The notes beneath the pieces are model-generated. The model was given only the letters and a program-made list of their open reading frames with translations. It did not search any database and was not told where the DNA came from. The position numbers and the translations under genes are program-made. From a virus, in UHGV virus genome UHGV-1578124: a DNA stretch of 16,995 nucleotides; one strand, 5' to 3'. Shown here one piece after another: positions 1 through 16,878 of the stretch. Positions within the stretch are counted from its first letter, which is position 1. Each line of letters starts with the position of its first letter.

Positions 1-50
1 ATCAAATCAACTAATATATAAGCCCATAACCCGAAAGGGAAGGGCAATCC

Positions 51-90
51 CTAAAACGCTCTATAACGCTCTATAACGCTCTATAACGGC
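51..90. repeat. four tandem 10-bp units CTA(A/T)AACG(C/G)(T/C)
   Basis: Read directly: ctaaaacgct ctataacgct ctataacgct ctataacggc, head to tail with 10-bp period. Confidence 0.75.
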
Positions 91-259
91 TTATCAACTC
101 AACTTAAGCAATCATATTAACCCACTCTTAAAAGCCCTTTATAGAGCTTACTATAGCCTTAAAAGAATCTTATAAGGGTATAAGCTTTATCATCTCGTTA
201 GTTATCTTGTGAACTACTAAAAAGGGCTTGATAGTGTCTATTAAGTATGTTATATGGGC

Positions 260-299
260 TATAAAGTTACGTAAAAGGAGTTATAAAGTTACGTAAAAG
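260..299. repeat. 18-bp direct repeat TATAAAGTTACGTAAAAG x2, each with the 8-bp palindrome TTACGTAA
   Basis: Identical copies at 260-277 and 282-299 (22-bp period); TTACGTAA is self-complementary. Confidence 0.75.
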
Positions 300-365
300 C
301 TAGCCCCCTTAACATTTCTTTAACAAAATCTTAACAATCCCTACATAGTTATGCTTATTAGCAAC

Positions 366-415
366 TTGTTAGCACCTTGTTAAATCTCTGTTAAGACTAC
401 GTTACAACCTTGTTA
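366..415. repeat. phased array of five (T/C)TGTTA-type hexamers at 11-bp spacing
   Basis: Hexamers start at 366, 377, 388, 399 (ACGTTA variant) and 410. Confidence 0.6.
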
Positions 416-608
416 GGCTCTTTGAAGTCCCTATATAAGCCCCTGTAAAGGTCTATAAAGAGCTATACAGACAGTTGGGGTATAGATACTGGGAAGAACC
501 TTAGAAGAGGCTACATAGAGCTATACAGGGCTTTTAAGAGGGCTGTTTAGAGAATCACTGAGAAAGGTAGGGAACTATAGACCAAGAGATAGTGACCATG
601 TTAATAGA

Positions 609-818
609 TTGTTAAACATGTTGAGAACTTAATAGACACTTGTTAATAATCTTAACAAAATAACTTTTAAATTTAACATGTTAGGGACTTGTTAGCATCT
701 TGTTATACCCTTGTAAGAACTGTTAAACTCTTGTTACATCCTTGTTAGAACTGTTAAGGGATTGTTAAGAACTATGGAGACTTGTTAGAGACTTGTTAGA
801 GTTGTAAAGAAATTGTTA
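609..818. repeat. helically phased array of at least 14 (T/C)TGTTA(R) hexamers, 9-11 bp apart
   Basis: Starts at 609, 619, 640, then 678, 689, 700, 711, 720, 731, 742, 751, 762, 782, 793, 802, 813 (TTGTTA, CTGTTA or TTGTAA variants). Confidence 0.7.
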
Positions 819-1416
819 ATGATATTTTAAGATTTTGCAAAGGGGATGTTACAGAGCTGTTAAGGGCTACCAAGCAGATATACACCCTTTGTAGATATTT
901 TTCAGATACTCCCAAGAACCTAAAAAGTGACCTACCTAGTCTATTTTATAAAAATTTTATAGAACTGAATAACTATCTATACACTATCTTCTATAAAACA
1001 GGTAATAACAGGCTTATAAGATATCTTGTTAGTAACGTGTTAGACCTTGTAGGATAAGCCTTTACAGGGAATACCTGTTTAGTGCTATATAACAGTCTAT
1101 ATAGAGGCTTAGTTGACCCTAGTGAACCATCTATAGAGGGTATCATCCTTAACATAGAGATTAAGATGGATATAGGGGCTTCTAAGGGGCTATGGAGGAG
1201 CTAGGAAGGTAATTGTATAGGTGTGGAAGAGGGCTTGTTAGAGAGCTTTATAGAGGGCTATTTAGAAGGAGCTATATAGTTTCACTAGATAGGGACTAAG
1301 AGGCTATATAGATACTATATAATACTATATAGAGAGTATGCTTAGATAGGTTGTTGAAGAGGGTATTGATATTTTATCACATGATATGGTGACCCAAGAT
1401 GAACGGAGTGAATCCA

Positions 1417-11733: not shown

Positions 11734-11813
11734 CTCCGTTTAGCTCAGTTTGGTTTAGCAGCACTTGCTTTGGGAGCAAGGGGTCGAGGGTTCAAATCCT
11801 TCAACGGAGACCA
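11734..11813 (+). tRNA. tRNA-Pro (anticodon TGG)
   Basis: Acceptor CTCCGTT/AACGGAG; anticodon stem CTTGC/GCAAG, loop TTTGGGA; T-arm GAGGG-TTCAAAT-CCTTC; discriminator A; CCA encoded. Confidence 0.85.
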
Positions 11814-11819
11814 AATTAT

Positions 11820-11897
11820 GTTCCAGTAGACAAATTGGTAAAGTCACCACACTTTCAATGTGGAGTTTTGAGGGTTCAAGTCCCTTCTGGAACGCCA
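11820..11897 (+). tRNA. tRNA-Glu (anticodon TTC)
   Basis: Acceptor GTTCCAG/CTGGAAC; anticodon stem CCACA/TGTGG, loop CTTTCAA; T-loop TTCAAGT; discriminator G; CCA encoded. Confidence 0.8.
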
Positions 11898-11901
11898 AAT
11901 T

Positions 11902-11974
11902 TGACAGAAGACCAAATACAGCAAACAACTTTTACTTTTCGCGCATAGAAAACATAAAAAGCTTGGTCTGGTCA
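11902..11974 (+). ncRNA. structured spacer element E1 (bulged two-helix family)
   Basis: Outer helix TGAC (11902-05) / GTCA (11971-74); inner helix AGACCAA (11909-15) / TTGGTCT (11963-69); unpaired AGA opposite G. Confidence 0.55.
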
Positions 11975-11982
11975 TTAAGAAT

Positions 11983-12059
11983 CGCGGGTATAGAGAAAGG
12001 GCGTCTCACATGTCTCATTAGCATGGCAACGGTTGGTTCGACTCCAACACCCGCCTCCA
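11983..12059 (+). tRNA. tRNA with CAT anticodon (Met, Ile2 or initiator)
   Basis: Acceptor CGCGGGT/ACCCGCC with C1-C72 mismatch; D-stem GAGA/TCTC; anticodon stem CATGT/GCATG, loop CTCATTA; T-arm GTTGG-TTCGACT-CCAAC; discriminator U; CCA encoded. Confidence 0.65.
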
Positions 12060-12062
12060 AAT

Positions 12063-12130
12063 TTACAGAAGGCCGTTTACAGCAATTCAAACAATTTTAT
12101 CGGAAAATTAAAATGAATACGGTCTGGTAA
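12063..12130 (+). ncRNA. structured spacer element E2
   Basis: Outer TTAC (12063-66) / GTAA (12127-30); inner AGGCCGT (12070-76) / ACGGTCT (12119-25) with one G-U pair; AGA opposite G. Confidence 0.55.
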
Positions 12131-12140
12131 TGTTAAACAT

Positions 12141-12217
12141 GGTTAGGAAGCACATAAGGCATGTGCGGTCGGCTGTTAACCGAATGGCACAGGGTTCGAA
12201 TCCCTGACTAACCGCCA
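12141..12217 (+). tRNA. tRNA-Asn (anticodon GTT)
   Basis: Acceptor GGTTAGG/ACTAACC; D-stem GCAC/GTGC; anticodon loop CTGTTAA; T-arm CAGGG-TTCGAAT-CCCTG; discriminator G; CCA. Confidence 0.8.
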
Positions 12218-12284
12218 AATTTGGGAGAGAAGCGATTGCTCACCGATTTGTAAGGTGCAAGTCCTTAGCCTGAATAGAATAAAA

Positions 12285-12373
12285 TGCGTCGTTATCCCGT
12301 AGATGGAAGCGGTGGTGACTGTAAATCACTTGTCATTACGACTCGGTAGGTTCGACTCCTTCACGGCGCACCA
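12285..12373 (+). tRNA. tRNA-Tyr (anticodon GTA), type II
   Basis: Acceptor GCGTCGT/ACGGCGC; anticodon stem GGTGA/TCACT, loop CTGTAAA; long variable arm with GTC/GAC stem; T-loop TTCGACT; discriminator A; CCA. Confidence 0.8.
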
Positions 12374-12379
12374 AATAAA

Positions 12380-12456
12380 GGTTATGTAGTTTAACTGGTC
12401 AAAATACTCCCCTGTCACGGGAGATGATGAGGGTTCGAATCCCTTCGTAACCGCCA
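12380..12456 (+). tRNA. tRNA-Asp (anticodon GTC)
   Basis: Acceptor GGTTATG/CGTAACC; anticodon stem CTCCC/GGGAG, loop CTGTCAC; T-arm GAGGG-TTCGAAT-CCCTT; discriminator G; CCA. Confidence 0.85.
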
Positions 12457-12514
12457 AATTTGAGAGGGCTTTTTAGCCCCTCCCTTAAAGAGTTCTTTCG
12501 AGTATTCTTTAAAG

Positions 12515-12594
12515 GAGCAGAAGACCAAATTCAGCAAGCAACAAAAATATTTCAAGCCAATTTAATTTGAAAAATTTAAAACTTGGTCTGGTTC
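12515..12594 (+). ncRNA. structured spacer element E3
   Basis: Outer GAGC (12515-18) / GTTC (12591-94) with one G-U; inner AGACCAA (12522-28) / TTGGTCT (12583-89); AGA opposite G. Confidence 0.5.
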
Positions 12595-12602
12595 CAACAA
12601 TT

Positions 12603-12734
12603 TTACAGAAGACCGTTTACAGCAAACAATAAACAATCTATTTCTCTTATAAAGAAAAGGCGAAGGTTCGAATCCTTCACACGTTACGGCGTGTTGGTGT
12701 AATGGAAGCACTTAAGATAAATACGGTCTGGTAA
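12603..12734 (+). ncRNA. structured spacer element E4 with internal tRNA-like module
   Basis: Outer TTAC (12603-06) / GTAA (12731-34); inner AGACCGT (12610-16) / ACGGTCT (12723-29). Apical region 12662-12711 holds a canonical T-arm, an ACACG/CGTGT hairpin and a D-arm-like GTG-TAATGGAAG-CAC. Confidence 0.55.
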
Positions 12735-12738
12735 TCCT

Positions 12739-12871
12739 CTTTGCAGTGACTTATGGAGCTAATATGTCGTCCCATGAGTGCCGATGAGTTTCTTGAGCAT
12801 GATTCTAGATTAGCTTACTAAGAGACAACTCTACAAACCCTTTAGCAAGGTTTGCGTAGGTTACTGCAAAG
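12739..12871 (+). ncRNA. candidate structured RNA closed by a long-range helix
   Basis: CTTTGCAGTGAC (12739-50) pairs with GTTACTGCAAAG (12860-71). Interior holds two overlapping mini-ORFs (12764-12787 MSSHECR, 12784-12813 MSFLSMILD), the first with GGAG 6 nt upstream. Confidence 0.35.
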
Positions 12872-12881
12872 ATGATTTAAT

Positions 12882-12957
12882 GGAAGTGTAGCAGAATGGT
12901 GATGCGGCAGACTTTTAATCTGACAGGCGACGGGTTCGAATCCCTCCACTTCTACCA
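12882..12957 (+). tRNA. tRNA-Lys (anticodon TTT)
   Basis: Acceptor GGAAGTG/CACTTCT; anticodon stem CAGA/TCTG, loop CTTTTAA; weak T-arm (GACGG...CCCTC); discriminator A; CCA. Confidence 0.7.
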
Positions 12958-12962
12958 AATTC

Positions 12963-13029
12963 GCCCTTAACTGAAGAACACATGCGCGGCTGGAGACACC
13001 CACTCAATCAGTTCTTCTACAAAGGGCAA
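12963..13029 (+). ncRNA. large imperfect hairpin
   Basis: GCCCTT + GAAGAAC (12963-79) pair with GTTCTTC + AAGGGC (13011-29) around a 4x4 internal loop; ~31-nt apical loop; no U-tract follows. Confidence 0.4.
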
Positions 13030-13037
13030 CTTATTAC

Positions 13038-13114
13038 GGTTCAGTCGCAGATAAGGTAATGCAAGGGTTTCATAAGCCCTATGAATGTGGGTTCGATTCC
13101 CACTTGAACCTCCA
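13038..13114 (+). tRNA. tRNA-Met (anticodon CAT; could be Ile2 or initiator)
   Basis: Acceptor GGTTCAG/TTGAACC; anticodon stem AGGGT/GCCCT, loop TTCATAA; T-arm GTGGG-TTCGATT-CCCAC; discriminator U; CCA. Confidence 0.75.
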
Positions 13115-13116
13115 AT

Positions 13117-13191
13117 TGTGGGTTAGCATAAATGGTAATGCAAACGGCTGATAACCGTTAGAAGAGGGTTCGATACCCTCACCTACAACCA
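13117..13191 (+). tRNA. tRNA-Ile (anticodon GAT)
   Basis: Acceptor TGTGGGT/ACCTACA; D-stem GCAT/ATGC; anticodon stem AACGG/CCGTT, loop CTGATAA; T-arm GAGGG-TTCGATA-CCCTC; discriminator A; CCA. Confidence 0.8.
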
Positions 13192-13206
13192 AATTCAATA
13201 AAGTTG

Positions 13207-13235
13207 TTGATATTGAGATGTGACTACTTTATAGT
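13207..13235 (+). promoter_or_regulatory. sigma70-like promoter TTGATA-17-TATAGT
   Basis: Hexamers at 13207-13212 and 13230-13235; would drive the ~200-nt non-tRNA segment before tRNA-Arg(TCT). Confidence 0.5.
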
Positions 13236-13241
13236 AACCTT

Positions 13242-13403
13242 AGTTTTCGTTAGCGTAGCGTCTATTTTGCAAACTTAAAAATAAATGCAAACGATAATGT
13301 TTTTCTGGCAGTAGCTTAATAGGCTAAACACCAGTGAGGTCTTCCAACCCCTCATCAAAGAATTTGGCGTACTAGCCCACGGTATGATTAATAAGGTGGG
13401 CAT
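13242..13403 (+). ncRNA. candidate small RNA / transcribed spacer
   Basis: Lies downstream of the 13207 promoter; hairpins TAGC/GCTA (13312-26), TGAGG/CCTCA (13334-53), GCCCAC/GTGGGC (13375-13401); no tRNA fold and no ORF. Confidence 0.3.
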
Positions 13404-13440
13404 CTTTAAGGGCTTTCTAAGAGAGTCTTTAAAGATTAAT

Positions 13441-13517
13441 GCACCCTTAGTTCAATTGGATAGAGCAACGGTCTTCTAAATCGTTAGTTACAGGTTCGAA
13501 TCCTGTAGGGTGTGCCA
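13441..13517 (+). tRNA. tRNA-Arg (anticodon TCT)
   Basis: Acceptor GCACCCT/AGGGTGT; D-stem GTTC/GAGC; anticodon stem ACGGT/ATCGT, loop CTTCTAA; T-arm ACAGG-TTCGAAT-CCTGT; discriminator G; CCA. Confidence 0.85.
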
Positions 13518-13618
13518 ATTAGTTAGCAGATTACTTAGACGACCTTAGCGGGTCTTCCTGTAGGGAGGTGGTCTGTATCTCATGTTTTCCAGAACATGTA
13601 AATAATCTGAGAAGGGGC

Positions 13619-13647
13619 TTGACAGTGTTGTGATAATACGGTAAGCT
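13619..13647 (+). promoter_or_regulatory. sigma70-like promoter TTGACA-17-TAAGCT
   Basis: Hexamers at 13619-13624 and 13642-13647; the block TTGACAgTGTTGTGATA...TAAG matches the 11587 element. Confidence 0.45.
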
Positions 13648-13659
13648 TCGAATTATAGT

Positions 13660-13742
13660 ATGGGACGATGTTAAGACACTAAGGCATGTGCGTAAGCCTC
13701 CAAAACTTACTCAAAGGGGTTCGATTCCTCCGTCCCATGCCA
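13660..13742 (+). tRNA. tRNA-Trp (anticodon CCA), atypical 80 nt
   Basis: Acceptor ATGGGAC/GTCCCAT (perfect); anticodon loop CTCCAAA; T-loop TTCGATT; discriminator G; CCA. There are about 7 extra nt between the acceptor stem and the D-arm. Confidence 0.6.
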
Positions 13743-13755
13743 AAGTCTCATTAGG

Positions 13756-13843
13756 GGTAGGTAGCGGCTAATGGTAGCCAAACTGTCTTGAAAACAGTTG
13801 CCACTGTAGAGATACGGTGAGGGTTCGACTCCTTTACTTACCG
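13756..13843 (+). tRNA. tRNA-Ser (anticodon TGA), type II
   Basis: Acceptor GGTAGGT/ACTTACC; anticodon stem ACTGT/ACAGT, loop CTTGAAA; variable-arm hairpin CTGTA-GAGA-TACGG; T-loop TTCGACT; discriminator G; 3' tail reads CCT, not CCA. Confidence 0.75.
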
Positions 13844-13923
13844 CCTAATAAGATTTAATTCCCGCGCTCGTCGAACAAGCTCGGTTTTTACTCGTGTATT
13901 GGCGTACACGGCACGACTATAAA

Positions 13924-13938
13924 ACACCTAGTAGGTGT
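13924..13938. promoter_or_regulatory. 15-bp palindrome ACACCTA-g-TAGGTGT (candidate protein-binding site)
   Basis: Perfect 7-bp inverted arms around a central G, in the 250-nt tRNA-free spacer 13847-14093. Confidence 0.4.
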
Positions 13939-14093
13939 CACGGAGAAGAGATAGTATCAAGCTCTCCAAAGGTTCTAGTCACCGGATTGAATAAGACTAT
14001 ATAAAGACTGTTTAGGTCTTTTTAGAGAATTGCTGAGGCATTTGATACCATTGTTGCTTTGGCGTCTTAGCAGTTCTCTACAAAGATTTAATG

Positions 14094-14171
14094 GGAGATT
14101 GACGGTAATTGGTAAACCTACCATCCTTAGAAGTTGGTGTTTGAGGGTTCGAATCCCTTGTCTCCTACCAA
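14094..14171 (+). tRNA. tRNA with anticodon TAG (Leu codon CUA), type I
   Basis: Acceptor GGGAGAT/GTCTCCT (G-U pairs at both ends); anticodon stem CCATC/GTTGG, loop CTTAGAA; T-arm GAGGG-TTCGAAT-CCCTT; discriminator A; CCA; no long variable arm. Confidence 0.6.
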
Positions 14172-14178
14172 ATTAATG

Positions 14179-14254
14179 CAGGTGTAGCAAAATGGTTATG
14201 CGGCTGACTCTTAATCAGTAAGACGATGGGTTCAATTCCCTCCACCTGTACCAA
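14179..14254 (+). tRNA. tRNA-Lys (anticodon CTT)
   Basis: Acceptor GCAGGTG/CACCTGT; anticodon stem GCTGA/TCAGT, loop CTCTTAA; same weak T-arm as Lys(TTT); discriminator A; CCA. Confidence 0.7.
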
Positions 14255-14260
14255 ATATCG

Positions 14261-14336
14261 GGGATGTAGTTTACATGGTTAAAACATAAGTTTTGCAAAC
14301 TTAAGTACAGGGTTCAATTCCCTGCTTCTCCACCAA
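14261..14336 (+). tRNA. tRNA-Ala (anticodon TGC)
   Basis: Acceptor GGGGATG/CTTCTCC with a G3-U70 wobble (the known Ala identity pair); D-stem GTTT/AAAC; anticodon stem TAAGT/ACTTA, loop TTTGCAA; T-arm CAGGG-TTCAATT-CCCTG; discriminator A; CCA. Confidence 0.85.
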
Positions 14337-14342
14337 TTAGTG

Positions 14343-14417
14343 CATCCATAGTTTAAACGGGAAAATTACAGTCTTCCAAACTGAGGTTGAGGGTTCGATT
14401 CCCTCTGGATGCTCCAA
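14343..14417 (+). tRNA. tRNA-Gly (anticodon TCC)
   Basis: Acceptor GCATCCA/TGGATGC (perfect); anticodon loop CTTCCAA; T-arm GAGGG-TTCGATT-CCCTC; discriminator U (as in Gly tRNAs); CCA. Confidence 0.85.
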
Positions 14418-14423
14418 ATAATG

Positions 14424-14500
14424 CTGCTTTCGTATAATTGGCTATTACACATCCCTTGTAAGGATGGAGATGCGGGTTCAAGTCCTGTGAGCAGCACCAA
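14424..14500 (+). tRNA. tRNA-Thr (anticodon TGT)
   Basis: Acceptor GCTGCTT/GAGCAGC; anticodon stem CATCC/GGATG, loop CTTGTAA; T-loop TTCAAGT; discriminator A; CCA. Confidence 0.8.
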
Positions 14501-14504
14501 TTTG

Positions 14505-14588
14505 AGGTCAAGTGAAAGGCCGCTTGAGTCAACTGAGACCGTAGCAAATTCCACGGAGTTGAGTTAGCGGCACAACTTCAGACCTCTT
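14505..14588 (+). ncRNA. nested-helix structured element between tRNA-Thr and tRNA-Val
   Basis: Closing helix GAGGTC (14505-10) / GACCTC (14583-88), second helix GCCGC/GCGGC, internal direct repeat TTGAGT x2; followed by a CTTTTAAAG motif. Confidence 0.4.
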
Positions 14589-14594
14589 TTAAAG

Positions 14595-14669
14595 CTCGCT
14601 TAGTTTATACGGTAAAGCCCCATCCTTACAAGTTGGTGAAGAAGGTTCAAGTCCTTCAGCGAGTACCAA
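14595..14669 (+). tRNA. tRNA-Val (anticodon TAC)
   Basis: Acceptor GCTCGCT/AGCGAGT; D-stem GTTT/AAGC; anticodon stem CCATC/GTTGG, loop CTTACAA; T-arm GAAGG-TTCAAGT-CCTTC; discriminator A; CCA. Confidence 0.8.
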
Positions 14670-14670
14670 G

Positions 14671-14748
14671 TTCCAGTATCCCAATTGGCAGAGGATGCAA
14701 GCTCAAACCTTGTATTAGTGACGGTTCGAATCCGTCTTGGAACACCAA
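14671..14748 (+). tRNA. tRNA with anticodon CAA (Leu codon UUG), type I
   Basis: Acceptor GTTCCAG/TTGGAAC; anticodon stem GCAAG/CTTGT, loop CTCAAAC; T-arm GACGG-TTCGAAT-CCGTC; discriminator A; CCA; 75 nt. Confidence 0.6.
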
Positions 14749-14762
14749 ATTAGGAGATTCCT

Positions 14763-14975
14763 ATGAAGCCTTATGGTAGACATGGTAAAGTTGAAATTGC
14801 AAGTTGTGGTTGCTGTGCTTCTCACGATGGTGAAGAAGATTACTACAAGTGGCGTACAGACCATCGTAGACGCTTTCTCAGAAGAGATAAGAAGAAAGCT
14901 AGACAGGAATCTCAAAAGAATATTGCAGAATTAGTTCAAACGGATAGAGCAGCAGCCTACGAAGTTGTTTGTTAG
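14763..14975 (+). CDS. small basic cysteine-containing protein (70 aa)
   Basis: AGGAG 5 nt upstream of ATG; contains C-G-C-C; its last ~17 codons run through the 5' two-thirds of tRNA-Arg(ACG), so the true 3' end is uncertain. Confidence 0.45.
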   Translation: MKPYGRHGKVEIASCGCCASHDGEEDYYKWRTDHRRRFLRRDKKKARQESQKNIAELVQTDRAAAYEVVC

Positions 14976-15001
14976 GGGTTCGAATCCCTTATTCTGCACC
15001 A
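14925..15001 (+). tRNA. tRNA-Arg (anticodon ACG)
   Basis: Acceptor GCAGAAT/ATTCTGC (perfect); D-stem GTTC/GAGC; anticodon stem GCAGC/GTTGT, loop CTACGAA; T-arm AGGGG-TTCGAAT-CCCTT; discriminator A; CCA. Confidence 0.85.
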
Positions 15002-15019
15002 ATTTTAGAAGGTAATTAT

Positions 15020-15247
15020 ATGCGTAAACTCATTATTGAAAGGCATAAAGATGCTGACAAGATTGCAACAACACAAGTTGGGGACACTGACTTCATTCTT
15101 GTAGGTTGGAAATGTGACCCAATAGCAGTTATGAAGGTTGTTCATGGTTTTGCAGGAATTGAATTTAATCAAATCATATTTGAAACGCTATTACCAGAAA
15201 ATCAGGATACGTGTAATAACGCATATGTCCTGACAAGAGTTCGTTAG
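15020..15247 (+). CDS. small protein (75 aa), paralog of 15292-15519
   Basis: AGAAGG ~7 nt upstream of ATG (MRKLIIERH...); the track ORF starts earlier inside the tRNA. Shares blocks with the next gene (GDT-FI-VGWK-DP, FAG-E, QVIFET-LPEN-DTCNNAY-LTRV). Confidence 0.65.
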   Translation: MRKLIIERHKDADKIATTQVGDTDFILVGWKCDPIAVMKVVHGFAGIEFNQIIFETLLPENQDTCNNAYVLTRVR

Positions 15248-15273
15248 GGGTTCGAATCCCTTATTCTGCACCA
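15244..15273 (+). pseudogene. tRNA 3' fragment (T-arm + acceptor 3' strand + CCA)
   Basis: A 31-nt stretch (GTTAGGGGTTCGAATCCCTTATTCTGCACCA, from 15243) is identical to the 3' end of tRNA-Arg(ACG) at 14971-15001; no matching 5' acceptor strand, D-arm or anticodon arm upstream. Confidence 0.65.
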
Positions 15274-15291
15274 AATTTAAAAGGGTAACTT

Positions 15292-15519
15292 ATGTTTAAA
15301 CTCATAGTTGAAAAACACCCAGAAGATGACAAGCTTGAAACAGGGAGATTTGGAGATACTTTCTTTATCAGAGTTGGCTGGAAAGCTGACCCATTAGAAG
15401 TTAGAAAGATTGTCTACAACTTTGCTGGTTTGGAATTAAAGCAAGTCATCTTTGAAACAATGTTGCCAGAAAATAAAGATACATGCAATAACGCATATAT
15501 TCTTACAAGAGTTAGTTAG
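15292..15519 (+). CDS. small protein (75 aa), paralog of 15020-15247
   Basis: AAAGGG upstream of ATG; stop codon TAG (15517-19) overlaps the first nucleotides of tRNA-Gln(TTG). Confidence 0.65.
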   Translation: MFKLIVEKHPEDDKLETGRFGDTFFIRVGWKADPLEVRKIVYNFAGLELKQVIFETMLPENKDTCNNAYILTRVS

Positions 15520-15593
15520 GGGATTAGTTTACAAGGTTAAAACCTCGGTCTTTGAAATCGAAGAAGTTGGTTCAATTCCAACATCCCCCGCCA
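15518..15593 (+). tRNA. tRNA-Gln (anticodon TTG)
   Basis: Acceptor AGGGGAT/ATCCCCC with unpaired 1-72; D-stem GTTT/AAAC; anticodon stem TCGGT/ATCGA, loop CTTTGAA; T-arm GTTGG-TTCAATT-CCAAC; discriminator G; CCA. Confidence 0.75.
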
Positions 15594-15595
15594 AT

Positions 15596-15674
15596 GCTCC
15601 ATTACTCCAATTGGCAGAGAGGCCAGACTTAAAATCTGTGTTATGTATCGGTTCGAATCCGATATGGAGTACCA
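15596..15674 (+). tRNA. tRNA with anticodon TAA (Leu codon UUA), type I
   Basis: Acceptor GCTCCAT/ATGGAGT; anticodon stem CAGA/TCTG, loop CTTAAAA; T-arm ATCGG-TTCGAAT-CCGAT; discriminator A; CCA; 76 nt with a 7-nt variable region. Confidence 0.6.
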
Positions 15675-15680
15675 AATATT

Positions 15681-15756
15681 AGCAGTGTAGCATAACTGGC
15701 AATGCTCCAGCCTCTGAAGCTGAAAGATTAAGGTTCAAATCCTTACGCTGCTGCCA
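15681..15756 (+). tRNA. tRNA-Gln (anticodon CTG)
   Basis: Acceptor AGCAGTG/CGCTGCT; D-stem GCAT/ATGC; anticodon loop CTCTGAA; T-arm TAAGG-TTCAAAT-CCTTA; discriminator G; CCA. Confidence 0.75.
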
Positions 15757-15787
15757 CTTCTAAGGGTTCTTACGAGAGTCCTTAAAT

Positions 15788-15864
15788 GTGGCCTTATCAT
15801 AAACGGATAATGACCCATGCTGTGAACATGGTCTATACGGGTTCGATTCCCGTAGGTCACCCCA
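15788..15864 (+). tRNA. tRNA-His (anticodon GTG)
   Basis: Acceptor GTGGCCT/AGGTCAC; D-stem TCAT/ATGA; anticodon stem CCATG/CATGG, loop CTGTGAA; T-arm ACGGG-TTCGATT-CCCGT; discriminator C; CCA. Position -1 is T, not the usual encoded G. Confidence 0.8.
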
Positions 15865-15871
15865 ATTCAAT

Positions 15872-15947
15872 AGCTCAATTAGCTTATATGGTTAAAGCGC
15901 GTGTCTGAAAAACATGAGAACAGGGTTCAAATCCCGATGGGCTACCA
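15872..15947 (+). tRNA. tRNA-Phe (anticodon GAA)
   Basis: Acceptor AGCTCAA/ATGGGCT; anticodon stem CGTGT/ACATG, loop CTGAAAA; T-loop TTCAAAT with a weak 3-4 bp T-stem; discriminator A; CCA. Confidence 0.65.
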
Positions 15948-15963
15948 ATTTTATAGGTGCATA

Positions 15964-16698
15964 ATGAAAGAGATGACAGGACAAGGTAAAGAGATTTTCA
16001 GTCTCCTTAAATCCGGTAACGGGTTCTCTAACCCTCTTATTACTGGTGCAGCAGTTCTTGGTGGTACAGTTGCCGCTTCTCAGTCATTAGTAACTTCTAT
16101 TGGTTCTGTATCAGACCCAGCTACCCAGCAAATTCTTATTGCTGCTGGCTTGACAACTGCCTTACTAAGCAGCTTTACAACAAGCCTTGGTAGCACCACT
16201 TCAACGACAACCACTTTAACTGACTATGGACAGAAGTCTGTAGATGAGTTTTCACAACGTATGCAAGTAGCTAAAGGTTACTCTAACGTTATGGGAGCAG
16301 CAGGTGAACAAGTCGGTTGTACACCGTTTAGTGGAATCATGGGAGTTGCTACAGAGTACGGTAACAAAGCTATGGATTTGATTAATACATCCATAGACGC
16401 TGTAAATGGCGTTCTAAGCGATTTACAAGATGCGATTGATAAAGGACTAGACACCATCTCTGAACTCGCTACACAGGCTGTTACAGTGATTAATGAGGGT
16501 ATGGCAAAGATTACCGCCTACGCTAATGAAGTGGCTCAGATGATTGCAGATGAAGCAGCCCTGATTGCTGACTACCTTAAAACGAATATTAATGGTTTTC
16601 TTGCTAATGTCTTACCAGATTGGTTTGATGATGCTTGTAAAACTGGTGTGATTGATACAATCGCAACTCCAGAGATGAAAGATGCTCTAAACAAATAA
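15964..16698 (+). CDS. hypothetical Ser/Thr/Ala/Gly-rich protein (244 aa)
   Basis: The track ORF starts at 15901 inside tRNA-Phe. First ATG after the tRNA (MKEMTGQ...) has AGGTG 4 nt upstream. Confidence 0.6.
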   Translation: MKEMTGQGKEIFSLLKSGNGFSNPLITGAAVLGGTVAASQSLVTSIGSVSDPATQQILIAAGLTTALLSSFTTSLGSTTSTTTTLTDYGQKSVDEFSQRMQVAKGYSNVMGAAGEQVGCTPFSGIMGVATEYGNKAMDLINTSIDAVNGVLSDLQDAIDKGLDTISELATQAVTVINEGMAKITAYANEVAQMIADEAALIADYLKTNINGFLANVLPDWFDDACKTGVIDTIATPEMKDALNK

Positions 16699-16701
16699 TT
16701 T

Positions 16702-16794
16702 GGAAGATTAACCCTAAAAGGTAAGGGAGTAGTTTGCTAAACTGCCAGTAACCGAGAAATCGGCGTACCAGTTCAAGTCTGGTATCTTCCTCCA
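16702..16794 (+). tRNA. tRNA-Ser (anticodon GCT), type II
   Basis: Acceptor GGAAGAT/ATCTTCC (perfect); D-stem CCC/GGG; anticodon stem GTAGT/ACTGC, loop TTGCTAA; variable-arm hairpin CCGA-GAAA-TCGG; T-arm ACCAG-TTCAAGT-CTGGT; discriminator U; CCA. Confidence 0.8.
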
Positions 16795-16801
16795 AATTAA
16801 T

Positions 16802-16878
16802 GTGTCGGTGGCAGAAATGGATTATGCGCCTGTCTGCAAAACAGGTATATAAGGGTTCAAGTCCCTTCCGATACTCCA
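16802..16878 (+). tRNA. tRNA-Cys (anticodon GCA)
   Basis: Acceptor GTGTCGG/CCGATAC; anticodon stem CCTGT/ACAGG, loop CTGCAAA; T-arm AAGGG-TTCAAGT-CCCTT; discriminator U (as in Cys tRNAs); CCA. Confidence 0.8.

What the first reader, a model, noticed from the sequence alone, without database searches (positions are those of the whole stretch)
51..299. Tandem decamers and a duplicated TTACGTAA palindrome
Four head-to-tail decamers CTA(A/T)AACG(C/G)(T/C) at 51-90 also follow a 10-bp period. About 170 bp downstream, two exact copies of TATAAAGTTACGTAAAAG (260-277, 282-299) each contain the perfect 8-bp palindrome TTACGTAA, a typical half-site pair for a dimeric DNA-binding protein. These are distinct repeat families from the TTGTTA array.
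Basis: seen in the sequence. Interest (0 to 1): 0.5.

Follow-up and report, generated by a model that had tools for sequence, protein, structure and literature searches.

The report
Phased repeats flanking a phage genome end
Both repeat sets are real, and the TTACGTAA pair belongs to an 11-base phased array that ends six bases before the point where Felix O1-type phages cut their DNA to form the genome end, so it is most likely a docking signal for the DNA-packaging or end-forming machinery, not a classical palindromic operator.

Summary
The window is a Felix O1-like phage (Ounavirinae, Mooglevirus-like), and bases 1-1460 form an ORF-free zone between convergent gene blocks.

Termini deposited for relatives (HP1, CRP22, E9, H12, Ro111lw, UAB_69) place the direct terminal repeat (DTR) at window 303-871. 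A 608-bp DTR was shown experimentally in phage UAB_Phi87.

The two TATAAAGTTACGTAAAAG copies are units of an 11-nt array (242-302) that runs up to the left DTR edge (AAGCTA|GCCCCC). In 33 distinct relatives:
- A CGTAA core lies exactly 11 nt before the first DTR base in all 33, and 33 nt before it in 21.
- 61 of 62 cores lie at multiples of 11 nt.
- T(A/T)ACA repeats continue the 11-nt spacing inside the DTR.

The perfect palindrome is not conserved (GTAACGTAA and GTATCGTAA variants), and copy number ranges from 1 to 4.

The decamer array has three units in all 30 aligned relatives. The fourth unit is unique to this window. One relative lacks the whole block.

Best reading (confidence about 0.55): these are cis-acting concatemer-junction elements. 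The 11-mer array is a bent, one-faced platform for terminase or an accessory protein, which sets the left DTR nick. Nobody has tested this. Novelty: a new member of a known kind.

The parts
22..47 (.). Small hairpin GCCC-ATAA-CCC-GAAA-GGG-AA-GGGC directly left of the decamers. It is context for the finding, and whether it belongs to the same element is uncertain.
   Evidence: DNA fold -5.3 kcal/mol, z -1.5. A second haplotype in relatives, GCCA..CCCC-AGAAA-GGGG..TGGC, keeps the pairing. No run of T follows it on the + strand.
51..90 (+). Four tandem decamers with consensus CTATAACGCT. Three units are conserved, and one extra unit (about 78-87 in the alignment) is unique to this window.
   Evidence: All 30 aligned relatives have 3 units. 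The core AACGCTCTATAAMGC occurs once in 20 of 27 loci. The block is absent from phage OPT-SAL01.
242..302 (+). 11-nt phased array ending at the DTR edge: TAAGTATGTTA (242-252), TATGGGCTATA (253-263), AAGTTACGTAA (264-274), AAGGAGTTATA (275-285), AAGTTACGTAA (286-296), then the linker AAGCTA (297-302).
   Evidence: Register view of 33 distinct relatives. CGTAA cores lie at -11 in 33/33, at -33 in 21/33, and 61 of 62 lie at multiples of 11 nt from DTR base 1. A-tracts start at 263, 273, 285 and 295; AAA periodicity peaks at 11 nt, matched by 0.8% of shuffles. In the whole 89-kb HP1 genome the exact 11-mer occurs only at this junction.
297..308 (+). Inferred left DTR boundary and nick site, AAGCTA|GCCCCC, cut between 302 and 303 with an uncertainty of 2 nt.
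   Evidence: The HP1 repeat_region starts at GCCCCCTTAACA, which aligns to window 303. Records CRP22 and E9 start at the same base. Record H12 ends at ...GCTA. H12 and E9 termini came from PhageTerm. The UAB_69 DTR annotation starts 2 nt earlier.
303..871 (.). Direct terminal repeat (569 bp), present once here because assemblies collapse the two copies.
   Evidence: Homology to the HP1 DTR 1-570, whose two copies are identical in that record. UAB_69 annotates a 618-bp DTR. The 608-bp DTR of UAB_Phi87 was shown by Bal31 digestion and run-off sequencing (PMC4837284).
310..336 (+). Three TAACA repeats (310, 321, 332) that continue the 11-nt spacing just inside the DTR. Further in, the orientation flips to about 20 TGTTA repeats (367-858).
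   Evidence: T[AT]ACA lies at +7, +18 and +29 from DTR base 1 in 33, 33 and 32 of 33 relatives.
858..884 (+). Inferred right DTR boundary, TGTTAAGGGCTACC|AAGCAGATATACA, cut between 871 and 872. Its reverse complement, TGCTT|GGTAGCCCTTAACA, mirrors the left edge, TGCTA|GCCCCCTTAACA in most relatives (AGCTA in this window).
   Evidence: Invariant in every relative examined. It matches the end of the HP1 DTR and the end of the Ro111lw record. Inverted repeat I14, arms 306-325 and 847-866, 85% complementary.

Best explanation
The finding lies in the last 300 bp of unique sequence at the right end of a Felix O1-type phage genome, directly against the left edge of the 569-bp direct terminal repeat (DTR, 303-871). 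In replicating concatemers this is the junction between two successive genomes.

The two TTACGTAA-containing 18-mers are the best-kept units of an 11-nt phased array (242-302). Its last unit always ends 6 nt before the first DTR base. The array carries four A-tracts in helical phase, so it should be intrinsically bent and should present its sites on one face of the helix.

Most likely mechanism: an oligomeric phage protein, either the small terminase subunit or an accessory end-forming factor, binds this array together with the three TAACA repeats just inside the DTR. This places the nuclease so that it nicks the top strand at GCTA|GCCCCC. A mirror-image site at the other DTR edge (TGCTT|GGTAGCCC on the bottom strand) receives the second nick, and strand-displacement synthesis duplicates the DTR, as proposed for T7-type phages.

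The decamer array, 210 bp further left, probably belongs to the same conserved junction region as an auxiliary binding array. It is dispensable in at least one natural isolate, and its fourth unit is a recent slippage product.

What is shown: the position relative to deposited termini, the phase, the conservation, the uniqueness in the genome, and the absence of coding or promoter signals. What is inferred: the binding protein, the nick chemistry and the role in packaging.
For: 1. The window is a Felix O1-like phage. 243 phage records match 1-1500, and the best is Shigella phage ESh22 at 94.9%. The region lies between convergent gene blocks, each ending in a terminator.
2. Six independent deposits agree on the DTR edges at window 302|303 and 871|872, within 2 nt. 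A DTR of this size was shown experimentally in UAB_Phi87.
3. In 33 distinct junctions the proximal unit AAGT[TA][AT]CGTAA and the 6-nt linker have fixed length and position in all 33. 61 of 62 CGTAA cores lie at multiples of 11 nt from the terminus. TAACA repeats follow at +7, +18 and +29.
4. OPT-SAL01 has lost everything left of about window 250, including the decamers, but keeps the 11-mer array and the boundary.
5. In the complete HP1 genome the exact 11-mer occurs only at the junction.
6. The non-coding 1-340 is 84.5% identical to Felix O1, while the adjacent protein is only about 54% identical. This suggests purifying selection on the DNA itself.
7. A-tract periodicity of 11 nt in 245-305 is matched by only 0.8% of shuffles.
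8. The two DTR edges are inverted repeats and are invariant, consistent with one enzyme nicking opposite strands.
9. Established background: T7-type concatemers carry one DTR copy per junction, and the second copy is synthesised (PMC10438801). T3/T7 packaging specificity maps to the genome termini (PMC3276506). Insertions near the end of the T7 left repeat are among the few essential intergenic positions.
Against: - No experiment links these motifs to terminase.
- The termini of this particular phage are inferred by homology, not from reads.
- Two annotation sets differ by 2 nt at both edges.
- The whole 1-299 stretch is about 82% conserved, and the motifs are not islands of extra conservation: 0.84-0.89 against 0.85 for 91-256. 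Motif-specific constraint therefore cannot be separated from general conservation among close relatives.
- Distances that are multiples of 11 would also arise from unit duplication alone.
- In the more distant genus Kolesnikvirus (phiEa21-4) the syntenic region has no ACGTAA motif. It has TTCTAA arrays instead. This shows the motif is clade-specific, which fits co-evolution with a protein but is not proof of it.
- No repeat of the same family flanks the right DTR edge.
- No small terminase subunit has been identified for this group.
Confidence: 0.55

Rival explanations
1. Iterons of a replication origin. The decamers, the 11-mers and the TGTTA array would be binding sites for a phage or host initiator in the gene-free terminal region, and closeness to the DTR edge would be incidental.
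For: - Dense phased direct repeats fill an AT-rich (30-39% GC), ORF-free 1.46-kb zone.
- Such arrays are typical of origins (general knowledge).
- GC skew changes sign across the region.
Against: - The skew change coincides with the switch between convergent transcription units, which explains it by itself.
- No initiator gene is adjacent. Neighbouring genes belong to families of unknown function, and the replication genes lie tens of kb away in HP1.
- The exact, invariant 6-nt distance of the last unit to the terminal nucleotide is unexplained by an origin role.
Confidence: 0.12
2. A platform for a host DNA-binding protein. An OmpR/PhoB-type response regulator such as ArcA-P, or a nucleoid protein, would bind the 11-nt direct repeats and organise or regulate the genome end.
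For: - ArcA-P binds 10-bp direct repeats with core TGTTA at 11-bp centre-to-centre spacing, with extra repeats at 11 or 22 bp (PMC4173790).
- The DTR holds about 20 TGTTA, many 11 nt apart.
- phiEa21-4 keeps TGTTA arrays although its outer repeats differ.
- The units in this finding share the 11/22-nt spacing.
Against: - The units in this finding read AGTTA and CGTAA, not TGTTA, so the defining core is not met for 260-299.
- The decamers have a 10-nt period and no TGTTA.
- No binding data exist.
- A host factor does not explain why the outer-left repeat word differs between phage genera whose hosts have similar ArcA (inference).
Confidence: 0.1
3. Functionless minisatellites. The repeats arise by replication slippage in slack non-coding DNA and are conserved only because the relatives are close.
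For: - The fourth decamer is unique to this window.
- ACGTAA copy number ranges from 1 to 4, with a large expansion in phage Si3.
- OPT-SAL01 is viable without the decamers.
- The motifs are no more conserved than their flanks.
Against: - The non-coding region is far better conserved than the adjacent protein-coding gene.
- The proximal unit, linker and boundary are fixed in 33/33, while indels are common further left.
- The array survives the OPT-SAL01 deletion.
- The exact 11-mer occurs nowhere else in an 89-kb genome.
Confidence: 0.1
4. Hairpin or cruciform element. The two self-complementary TTACGTAA copies, with GGGCTA (256-261) and TAGCCC (300-305), would pair in single-stranded DNA to prime DTR duplication, as proposed for a hairpin intermediate left of the T7 terminal repeat (recalled from Chung, Nardone & Hinkle 1990, not re-read here).
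For: - Window 255-305 folds as DNA into a 5-bp plus 8-bp hairpin, -6.7 kcal/mol, z -2.3. The opposite strand gives -6.2 kcal/mol, z -3.0.
- The position immediately left of the DTR matches the T7 model.
Against: - The stem is weak.
- Relatives with GTAACGTAA or GTATCGTAA units, or with a single ACGTAA copy, cannot form the 8-bp stem. The structure is therefore not conserved while the direct repeat is.
Confidence: 0.05
5. Palindromic operators for a dimeric repressor that control a promoter.
For: Two perfect 8-bp palindromes lie two helical turns apart, which is a classic operator geometry.
Against: - Promoter-like sites are not in excess in 1-1600 (8 found against 5.0 +/- 2.2 expected), and none overlaps 240-300.
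- Both flanking gene blocks are transcribed towards this region and end in terminators, so there is nothing to control.
- Dyad symmetry is lost in 6 of 33 proximal units.
Confidence: 0.04

Closest known systems
Bacteriophage T7/T3 concatemer junction (short exact DTR, site-specific end formation, repeat arrays flanking the terminal repeat)
   Same: - A short exact DTR of hundreds of bp is present once per concatemer junction, and the second copy has to be synthesised.
- Packaging specificity resides near the termini.
- Positions at the DTR edge are essential in T7.
- Arrays of short repeats lie directly beside the terminal repeat (T7 SRL/SRR, recalled from Dunn & Studier 1983).
   Different: - There is no sequence similarity.
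- This is a myovirus that uses host RNA polymerase, so T7's RNA-polymerase pausing at the junction cannot apply.
- The repeats here are 11-nt phased and locked to the terminal nucleotide.
- The DTR is bounded by inverted-repeat edges and is itself filled with TGTTA repeats.
SPP1 pac region (pacL-pacC-pacR) bound by the small terminase subunit
   Same: Phased repeat boxes lie on both sides of the cut. The non-encapsidated side is intrinsically bent, and an oligomeric TerS is thought to bind both sides (recalled from Chai, Lurz & Alonso 1995).
   Different: SPP1 packages by the headful mechanism and yields permuted ends. This phage group has exact, non-permuted DTR ends, so two precise cuts 569 bp apart are needed.
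Phage lambda cos (cosQ-cosN-cosB with R sites and an IHF bend)
   Same: A nicking site is flanked by repeated terminase-binding sites and bent DNA. An upstream element (cosQ) is met at the end of the packaged chromosome, as the 11-mer array would be if packaging runs left to right.
   Different: Lambda makes 12-nt cohesive ends. A heat test found no cohesive ends in UAB_Phi87. Here the two nicks would be 569 bp apart.
ArcA-P / OmpR-PhoB family direct-repeat sites
   Same: Direct repeats at 11-bp centre-to-centre spacing, with additional repeats at 11 or 22 bp.
   Different: The conserved core TGTTA is found in the neighbouring DTR array, not in the units of this finding (AGTTA, CGTAA). The decamers have a 10-nt period.

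Membership tests
Terminus-associated (concatemer-junction) cis element of a short-DTR phage | Lies at a boundary of the direct terminal repeat | tested here: met
   The last unit ends 6 nt before DTR base 1. The boundary was mapped from six deposited records.
Terminus-associated (concatemer-junction) cis element of a short-DTR phage | Fixed position and conservation across phages that share the packaging system | tested here: met
   The proximal unit and linker are fixed in 33/33 junctions. They are retained in the OPT-SAL01 deletion variant. The motif is absent from genus Kolesnikvirus, which has a different array at the same place.
Terminus-associated (concatemer-junction) cis element of a short-DTR phage | Bound by terminase and required for cutting or packaging | not testable with these tools
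   Needs EMSA or footprinting and mutant phages.
Headful pac site (SPP1/P22 type) | Terminally redundant, circularly permuted ends from headful cuts | tested here: not met
   Relatives have exact DTRs. The two HP1 copies are identical in that record, Bal31 digestion gave defined end fragments in UAB_Phi87, and PhageTerm reported DTRs.
Lambda-type cos site | Single-stranded cohesive ends | tested here: not met
   From the literature only: heating did not change the restriction pattern of UAB_Phi87 DNA (PMC4837284).
Palindromic operator of a dimeric repressor | Dyad symmetry conserved among relatives | tested here: not met
   The proximal unit is non-palindromic in 6 of 33 junctions, and 4 junctions have no TTACGTAA at all.
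Palindromic operator of a dimeric repressor | Overlaps or adjoins a promoter | tested here: not met
   No promoter-like site lies in 240-300, there is no excess over shuffles, and the flanking transcription is convergent.
Replication-origin iterons | Repeats next to an initiator gene or an unwinding element, with initiation mapped there | tested here: inconclusive
   The region is AT-rich and dense in repeats, but no initiator gene is nearby.
ArcA-P direct-repeat site | TGTTA core in each 10-bp repeat | tested here: not met
   The units read AAGTTACGTAA, whereas the ArcA consensus is ATGTTAAAAA. The neighbouring DTR array does have the core.
ArcA-P direct-repeat site | 11-bp (or 22-bp) centre-to-centre spacing | tested here: met
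   CGTAA cores lie at -11, -22, -33 and so on.
Known structured RNA | Match to an Rfam covariance model | tested here: not met
   No match at E <= 1 in 1-1600 on either strand.

The most novel reading that the evidence does not exclude
The 11-nt phase-locked arrays on both sides of the DTR nick (AAGTTACGTAA outside, TAACA/TGTTA inside) could form one continuous platform for a winged-helix, response-regulator-type protein. The host redox regulator ArcA-P is the obvious candidate for the TGTTA part. A strictly lytic phage would then couple genome-end processing, replication or packaging to the physiological state of its host. This would be a new kind of packaging control, and it would explain why the whole 1.4-kb gene-free terminus is conserved better than the genes beside it.
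Probability: 0.06. Interest if true: 0.8.

Novelty: new member of a known kind. Interest (0 to 1): 0.4.

Why it matters
Felix O1-type phages are widely used for Salmonella typing, biocontrol and therapy, yet their packaging signal and end-forming mechanism are undescribed. Papers report only the existence and length of the DTR.

Pinning a conserved, phase-locked repeat array and mirror-image nick sites to the exact termini gives a concrete, testable candidate for the recognition site. That would help in several ways:
- orienting and finishing the roughly 250 deposited genomes, most of which are opened arbitrarily;
- engineering these phages or building packageable vectors;
- judging their potential for transduction.

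It also offers a myovirus counterpart to the T7 model of DTR duplication.

Tried and rejected
- Rfam scan of 1-1600 at E <= 1: no hit.
- Sigma-70 promoter and terminator scan: no excess. The only terminator belongs to the leftward gene block at 1436-1453.
- blastn of 230-345 against 5,426 E. coli genomes: no match, so the element is not host- or prophage-derived.
- Protein-anchored retrieval from IMG/VR gave only 7 loci. A DNA pattern anchored on the DTR start, not on the motifs, gave 35 stretches, of which 11 were unrelated chance hits and were excluded.
- Hairpin or cruciform reading: the fold is weak and not conserved.
- PHROGs on ten neighbouring proteins: eight have unknown function, and none suggests a DNA-binding partner.
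- Literature: nothing on TTACGTAA in phages, nothing on an Ounavirinae packaging site, and the PhageMaP paper on the Felixounavirus Bas63 reports no intergenic data for that phage.
- The first conservation profile wrongly included two unrelated sequences and one non-homologous sequence. It was recomputed without them.
- IHF and DnaA consensus sites were looked for by eye near the decamers. No convincing match was found, and this was not pursued.

Full report
**1. The observation**

Positions 51-90 read CTAAAACGCT CTATAACGCT CTATAACGCT CTATAACGGC, and TATAAAGTTACGTAAAAG occurs exactly at 260-277 and 282-299. Tandem Repeats Finder reports 51-88 with period 10, 3.8 copies and 96% matches. It also reports period 11 for 263-299.

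TTACGTAA occurs only at these two places in the 16,995-base window. Shuffles expect 0.23 matches, and 6 of 200 reach two. The decamer with up to one mismatch has 4 hits against 0.63 expected, three of them tandem. The only ORF of 20 aa or more overlapping 1-420 is a 22-aa TTG ORF.

**2. Where this is**

Bases 1-1500 match 243 phage records, all Felix O1-like myoviruses (Ounavirinae). The best is Shigella phage ESh22, a Mooglevirus, at 94.9%.

In annotated relatives the 1.4-kb stretch has no credible gene. It lies between a block of small rightward genes and a block of leftward genes that includes the lysozyme gene. A terminator closes the leftward block at 1436-1453. The rest of the window holds phage genes of unknown function, a tail protein and 25 tRNA genes.

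**3. The key fact: the genome end lies here**

- Citrobacter phage HP1 is deposited with a 570-bp repeat at both ends, and the two copies are identical. Its first base, in GCCCCCTTAACA, aligns to window 303, and its last DTR base aligns to 871.
- Records CRP22 and E9 start at the same base.
- Record H12 ends at ...AAAGTTACGTAAATGCTA, directly before that base, and record Ro111lw ends at ...GGGCTACC, which matches window 871.
- H12 and E9 termini came from PhageTerm.
- Salmonella phage UAB_69 carries a DTR annotation that is shifted 2 nt at both edges.
- A 608-bp DTR was demonstrated in UAB_Phi87 by Bal31 digestion and run-off sequencing, and no cohesive ends were found (PMC4837284).

By homology, the DTR of this phage is 303-871.

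**4. Anatomy of the left junction**

I collected junctions with a pattern anchored on the DTR start, not on the motifs, and added loci from the phage collection. After removing unrelated chance hits, 33 distinct Ounavirinae junctions remained.

Read in an 11-nt register back from the terminus, the sequence is an array of units of the form AAGnnnCnTwA. In the window these are:
- TAAGTATGTTA
- TATGGGCTATA
- AAGTTACGTAA
- AAGGAGTTATA
- AAGTTACGTAA
- AAGCTA | GCCCCC

Across the 33 junctions:
- The unit next to the terminus is AAGTTACGTAA in 27, AAGTAACGTAA in 4 and AAGTATCGTAA in 2.
- The 6-nt linker always ends in TA.
- A CGTAA core lies 11 nt before DTR base 1 in 33/33 and 33 nt before it in 21/33.
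- 61 of 62 cores lie at exact multiples of 11 nt.
- Inside the DTR, T(A/T)ACA follows at +7, +18 and +29 in 33, 33 and 32 junctions.

Perfect TTACGTAA copies number 0 in 4 junctions, 1 in 11, 2 in 17 and 3 in 1 (after removing the two unrelated rows). Phage Si3 has a large expansion.

A-tracts start at 263, 273, 285 and 295. AAA periodicity in 245-305 peaks at 11 nt, and only 0.8% of shuffles match it. By established knowledge of phased A-tracts, this predicts a bend.

In the complete HP1 genome the exact 11-mer occurs only twice, both at this junction.

**5. The right DTR edge**

TGTTAAGGGCTACC|AAGCAGATATACA is invariant in all relatives. Its reverse complement, TGCTT|GGTAGCCCTTAACA, mirrors the left edge, which reads TGCTA|GCCCCCTTAACA in most relatives. 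The same inverted repeat was found mechanically as I14. This is what one would expect if one enzyme nicks opposite strands 569 bp apart. That reading is my inference.

No AAGTTACGTAA-type array flanks the right edge. CAGATAT repeats stand there instead.

**6. The decamers**

All 30 aligned relatives have three units, and the ten extra columns of the window are gaps in every one of them. Without those columns the block is about as well conserved as its surroundings.

Phage OPT-SAL01 matches the query only from 250 onward. A gene and its terminator replace everything to the left, and the 11-mer array and the boundary are kept. The decamers are therefore dispensable in at least one isolate.

In Erwinia phage phiEa21-4 (genus Kolesnikvirus) the syntenic ORF-free region has recognisable homologues of both DTR edges and 17 TGTTA repeats. 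It has no ACGTAA. Left of the putative DTR it has 14 TTCTA(A/T) repeats at 10-12 nt spacings, with consensus CTTCTAAACCG. This loosely resembles GCTCTATAACG. The resemblance is only suggestive.

**7. Strength and limits of the conservation argument**

Bases 1-340 are 84.5% identical to Felix O1, while the adjacent 222-aa protein is about 54% identical over 78% of its length. The DNA itself seems to be under selection.

Within 1-299, however, conservation is uniform: mean 0.82, 18-mers 0.84 and 0.89, and 91-256 at 0.85. The motifs do not stand out.

Multiples of 11 nt would also follow from unit duplication alone. The stronger points are the invariance of the proximal unit and linker while indels accumulate further left, the survival of the array in the natural deletion, and its uniqueness in the genome.

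**8. Mechanism**

In T7-type phages each concatemer junction holds one DTR copy, and the second copy is synthesised. Packaging specificity maps to the termini, and positions at the DTR edge are essential.

By analogy, I propose that the 11-mer array and the TAACA triplet form a bent, one-faced binding platform. A small terminase subunit or an accessory protein would bind it and place the nuclease at GCTA|G. The mirror site would be nicked on the other strand, and strand displacement would duplicate the DTR. If packaging runs left to right, the array is also the last thing the motor meets before the terminal DTR, so a cosQ-like termination role is equally possible. I put this family of readings at 0.55.

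**9. Rivals**

- **Origin iterons (0.12).** The repeats and AT-richness fit. No initiator gene is near, and the skew change is explained by convergent transcription.
- **Host-factor platform (0.10).** ArcA-P binds TGTTA direct repeats at 11 bp, which matches the DTR array very closely. The units of this finding lack that core.
- **Neutral minisatellite (0.10).** This is true for the fourth decamer and for copy-number noise, but not for the proximal unit.
- **Hairpin primer as in T7 (0.05).** The window folds weakly, and relatives cannot form the stem.
- **Palindromic operator (0.04).** There is no promoter and nothing to regulate, and the dyad is not conserved.

**10. Comparison and novelty**

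The closest systems are the T7/T3 concatemer junction, the SPP1 pac region and lambda cos. The resemblance is architectural only. There is no sequence similarity, and the headful and cos membership tests fail.

The literature I could search describes only the presence and length of the DTR in this group. It says nothing on these motifs.

I rate this a new member of a known kind: a terminus-flanking recognition array. It is of moderate interest because it turns the unknown packaging signal of a widely used phage group into a precise, testable hypothesis.

Noticed in passing
window 303-871: The direct terminal repeat begins with three TAACA (310, 321, 332) and then holds about 20 TGTTA in the opposite orientation up to 858, many 11 nt apart. 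TGTTA direct repeats at 11-bp centre-to-centre spacing are the defined binding architecture of the host redox regulator ArcA-P (PMC4173790). TGTTA arrays are also kept in the Erwinia phage phiEa21-4.
   Followed up: partly
window 297-314 and 858-876: The two DTR edges are inverted repeats. The left edge reads TGCTA|GCCCCCTTAACA in most relatives (AGCTA in the window). The right edge, reverse-complemented, reads TGCTT|GGTAGCCCTTAACA. Both are invariant in relatives. This suggests a nick consensus GCTW^G on opposite strands.
   Followed up: partly
window 22-47: Hairpin GCCC-ATAA-CCC-GAAA-GGG-AA-GGGC just left of the decamers. A second haplotype in relatives (GCCA...CCCC-AGAAA-GGGG...TGGC) keeps the pairing through changes on both sides. 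No T-run follows it on the + strand, so it is not an obvious terminator.
   Followed up: partly
window 872-910: Just outside the right DTR edge there are two or three CAGATAT-type repeats (876, 893, 904). Several relatives carry an extra 26-30 nt insertion there that contains the palindrome GGTAGATTCTACC.
   Followed up: no
window 1085-1340: Further repeat families lie in the left unique non-coding part: a 12-nt tandem AGAGGGCTATAT (1228-1279) and CTATATAG palindromes (1097, 1272, 1304, 1325). The stretch 1237-1261 is 84% complementary to the decamer array (63-87). CTATA[AT]AG occurs 6 times in 1-1460 and never in the other 15.5 kb.
   Followed up: no
L023 (Salmonella phage OPT-SAL01) 1160-1560: Natural variant in which everything homologous to window 1-250 (hairpin, decamers and more) is replaced by a 97-aa gene plus a terminator. 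The 11-mer array and the DTR edge are intact.
   Followed up: yes
L064 (Erwinia phage phiEa21-4) 10473-11660: The syntenic ORF-free region in a different genus has likely DTR edges GGTTA|GCCAC... and ...ACCACT|AAGCAGATATACA, implying a DTR of about 440 bp. It has 14 TTCTA(A/T) repeats at 10-12 nt spacings to the left, 17 TGTTA and no ACGTAA. The small annotated ORF gp32 inside it lies in a TGTTAAG repeat array and may be spurious.
   Followed up: partly
window 11734-16878: 25 tRNA genes in a cluster on the + strand, as is usual for Felix O1-like phages.
   Followed up: no
phage collection records: Most of the roughly 250 deposited relatives are opened at arbitrary points, with the DTR collapsed in the middle of the record. 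ESh22 has several tiny phanotate-called ORFs inside the repeat region that are probably not genes.
   Followed up: no
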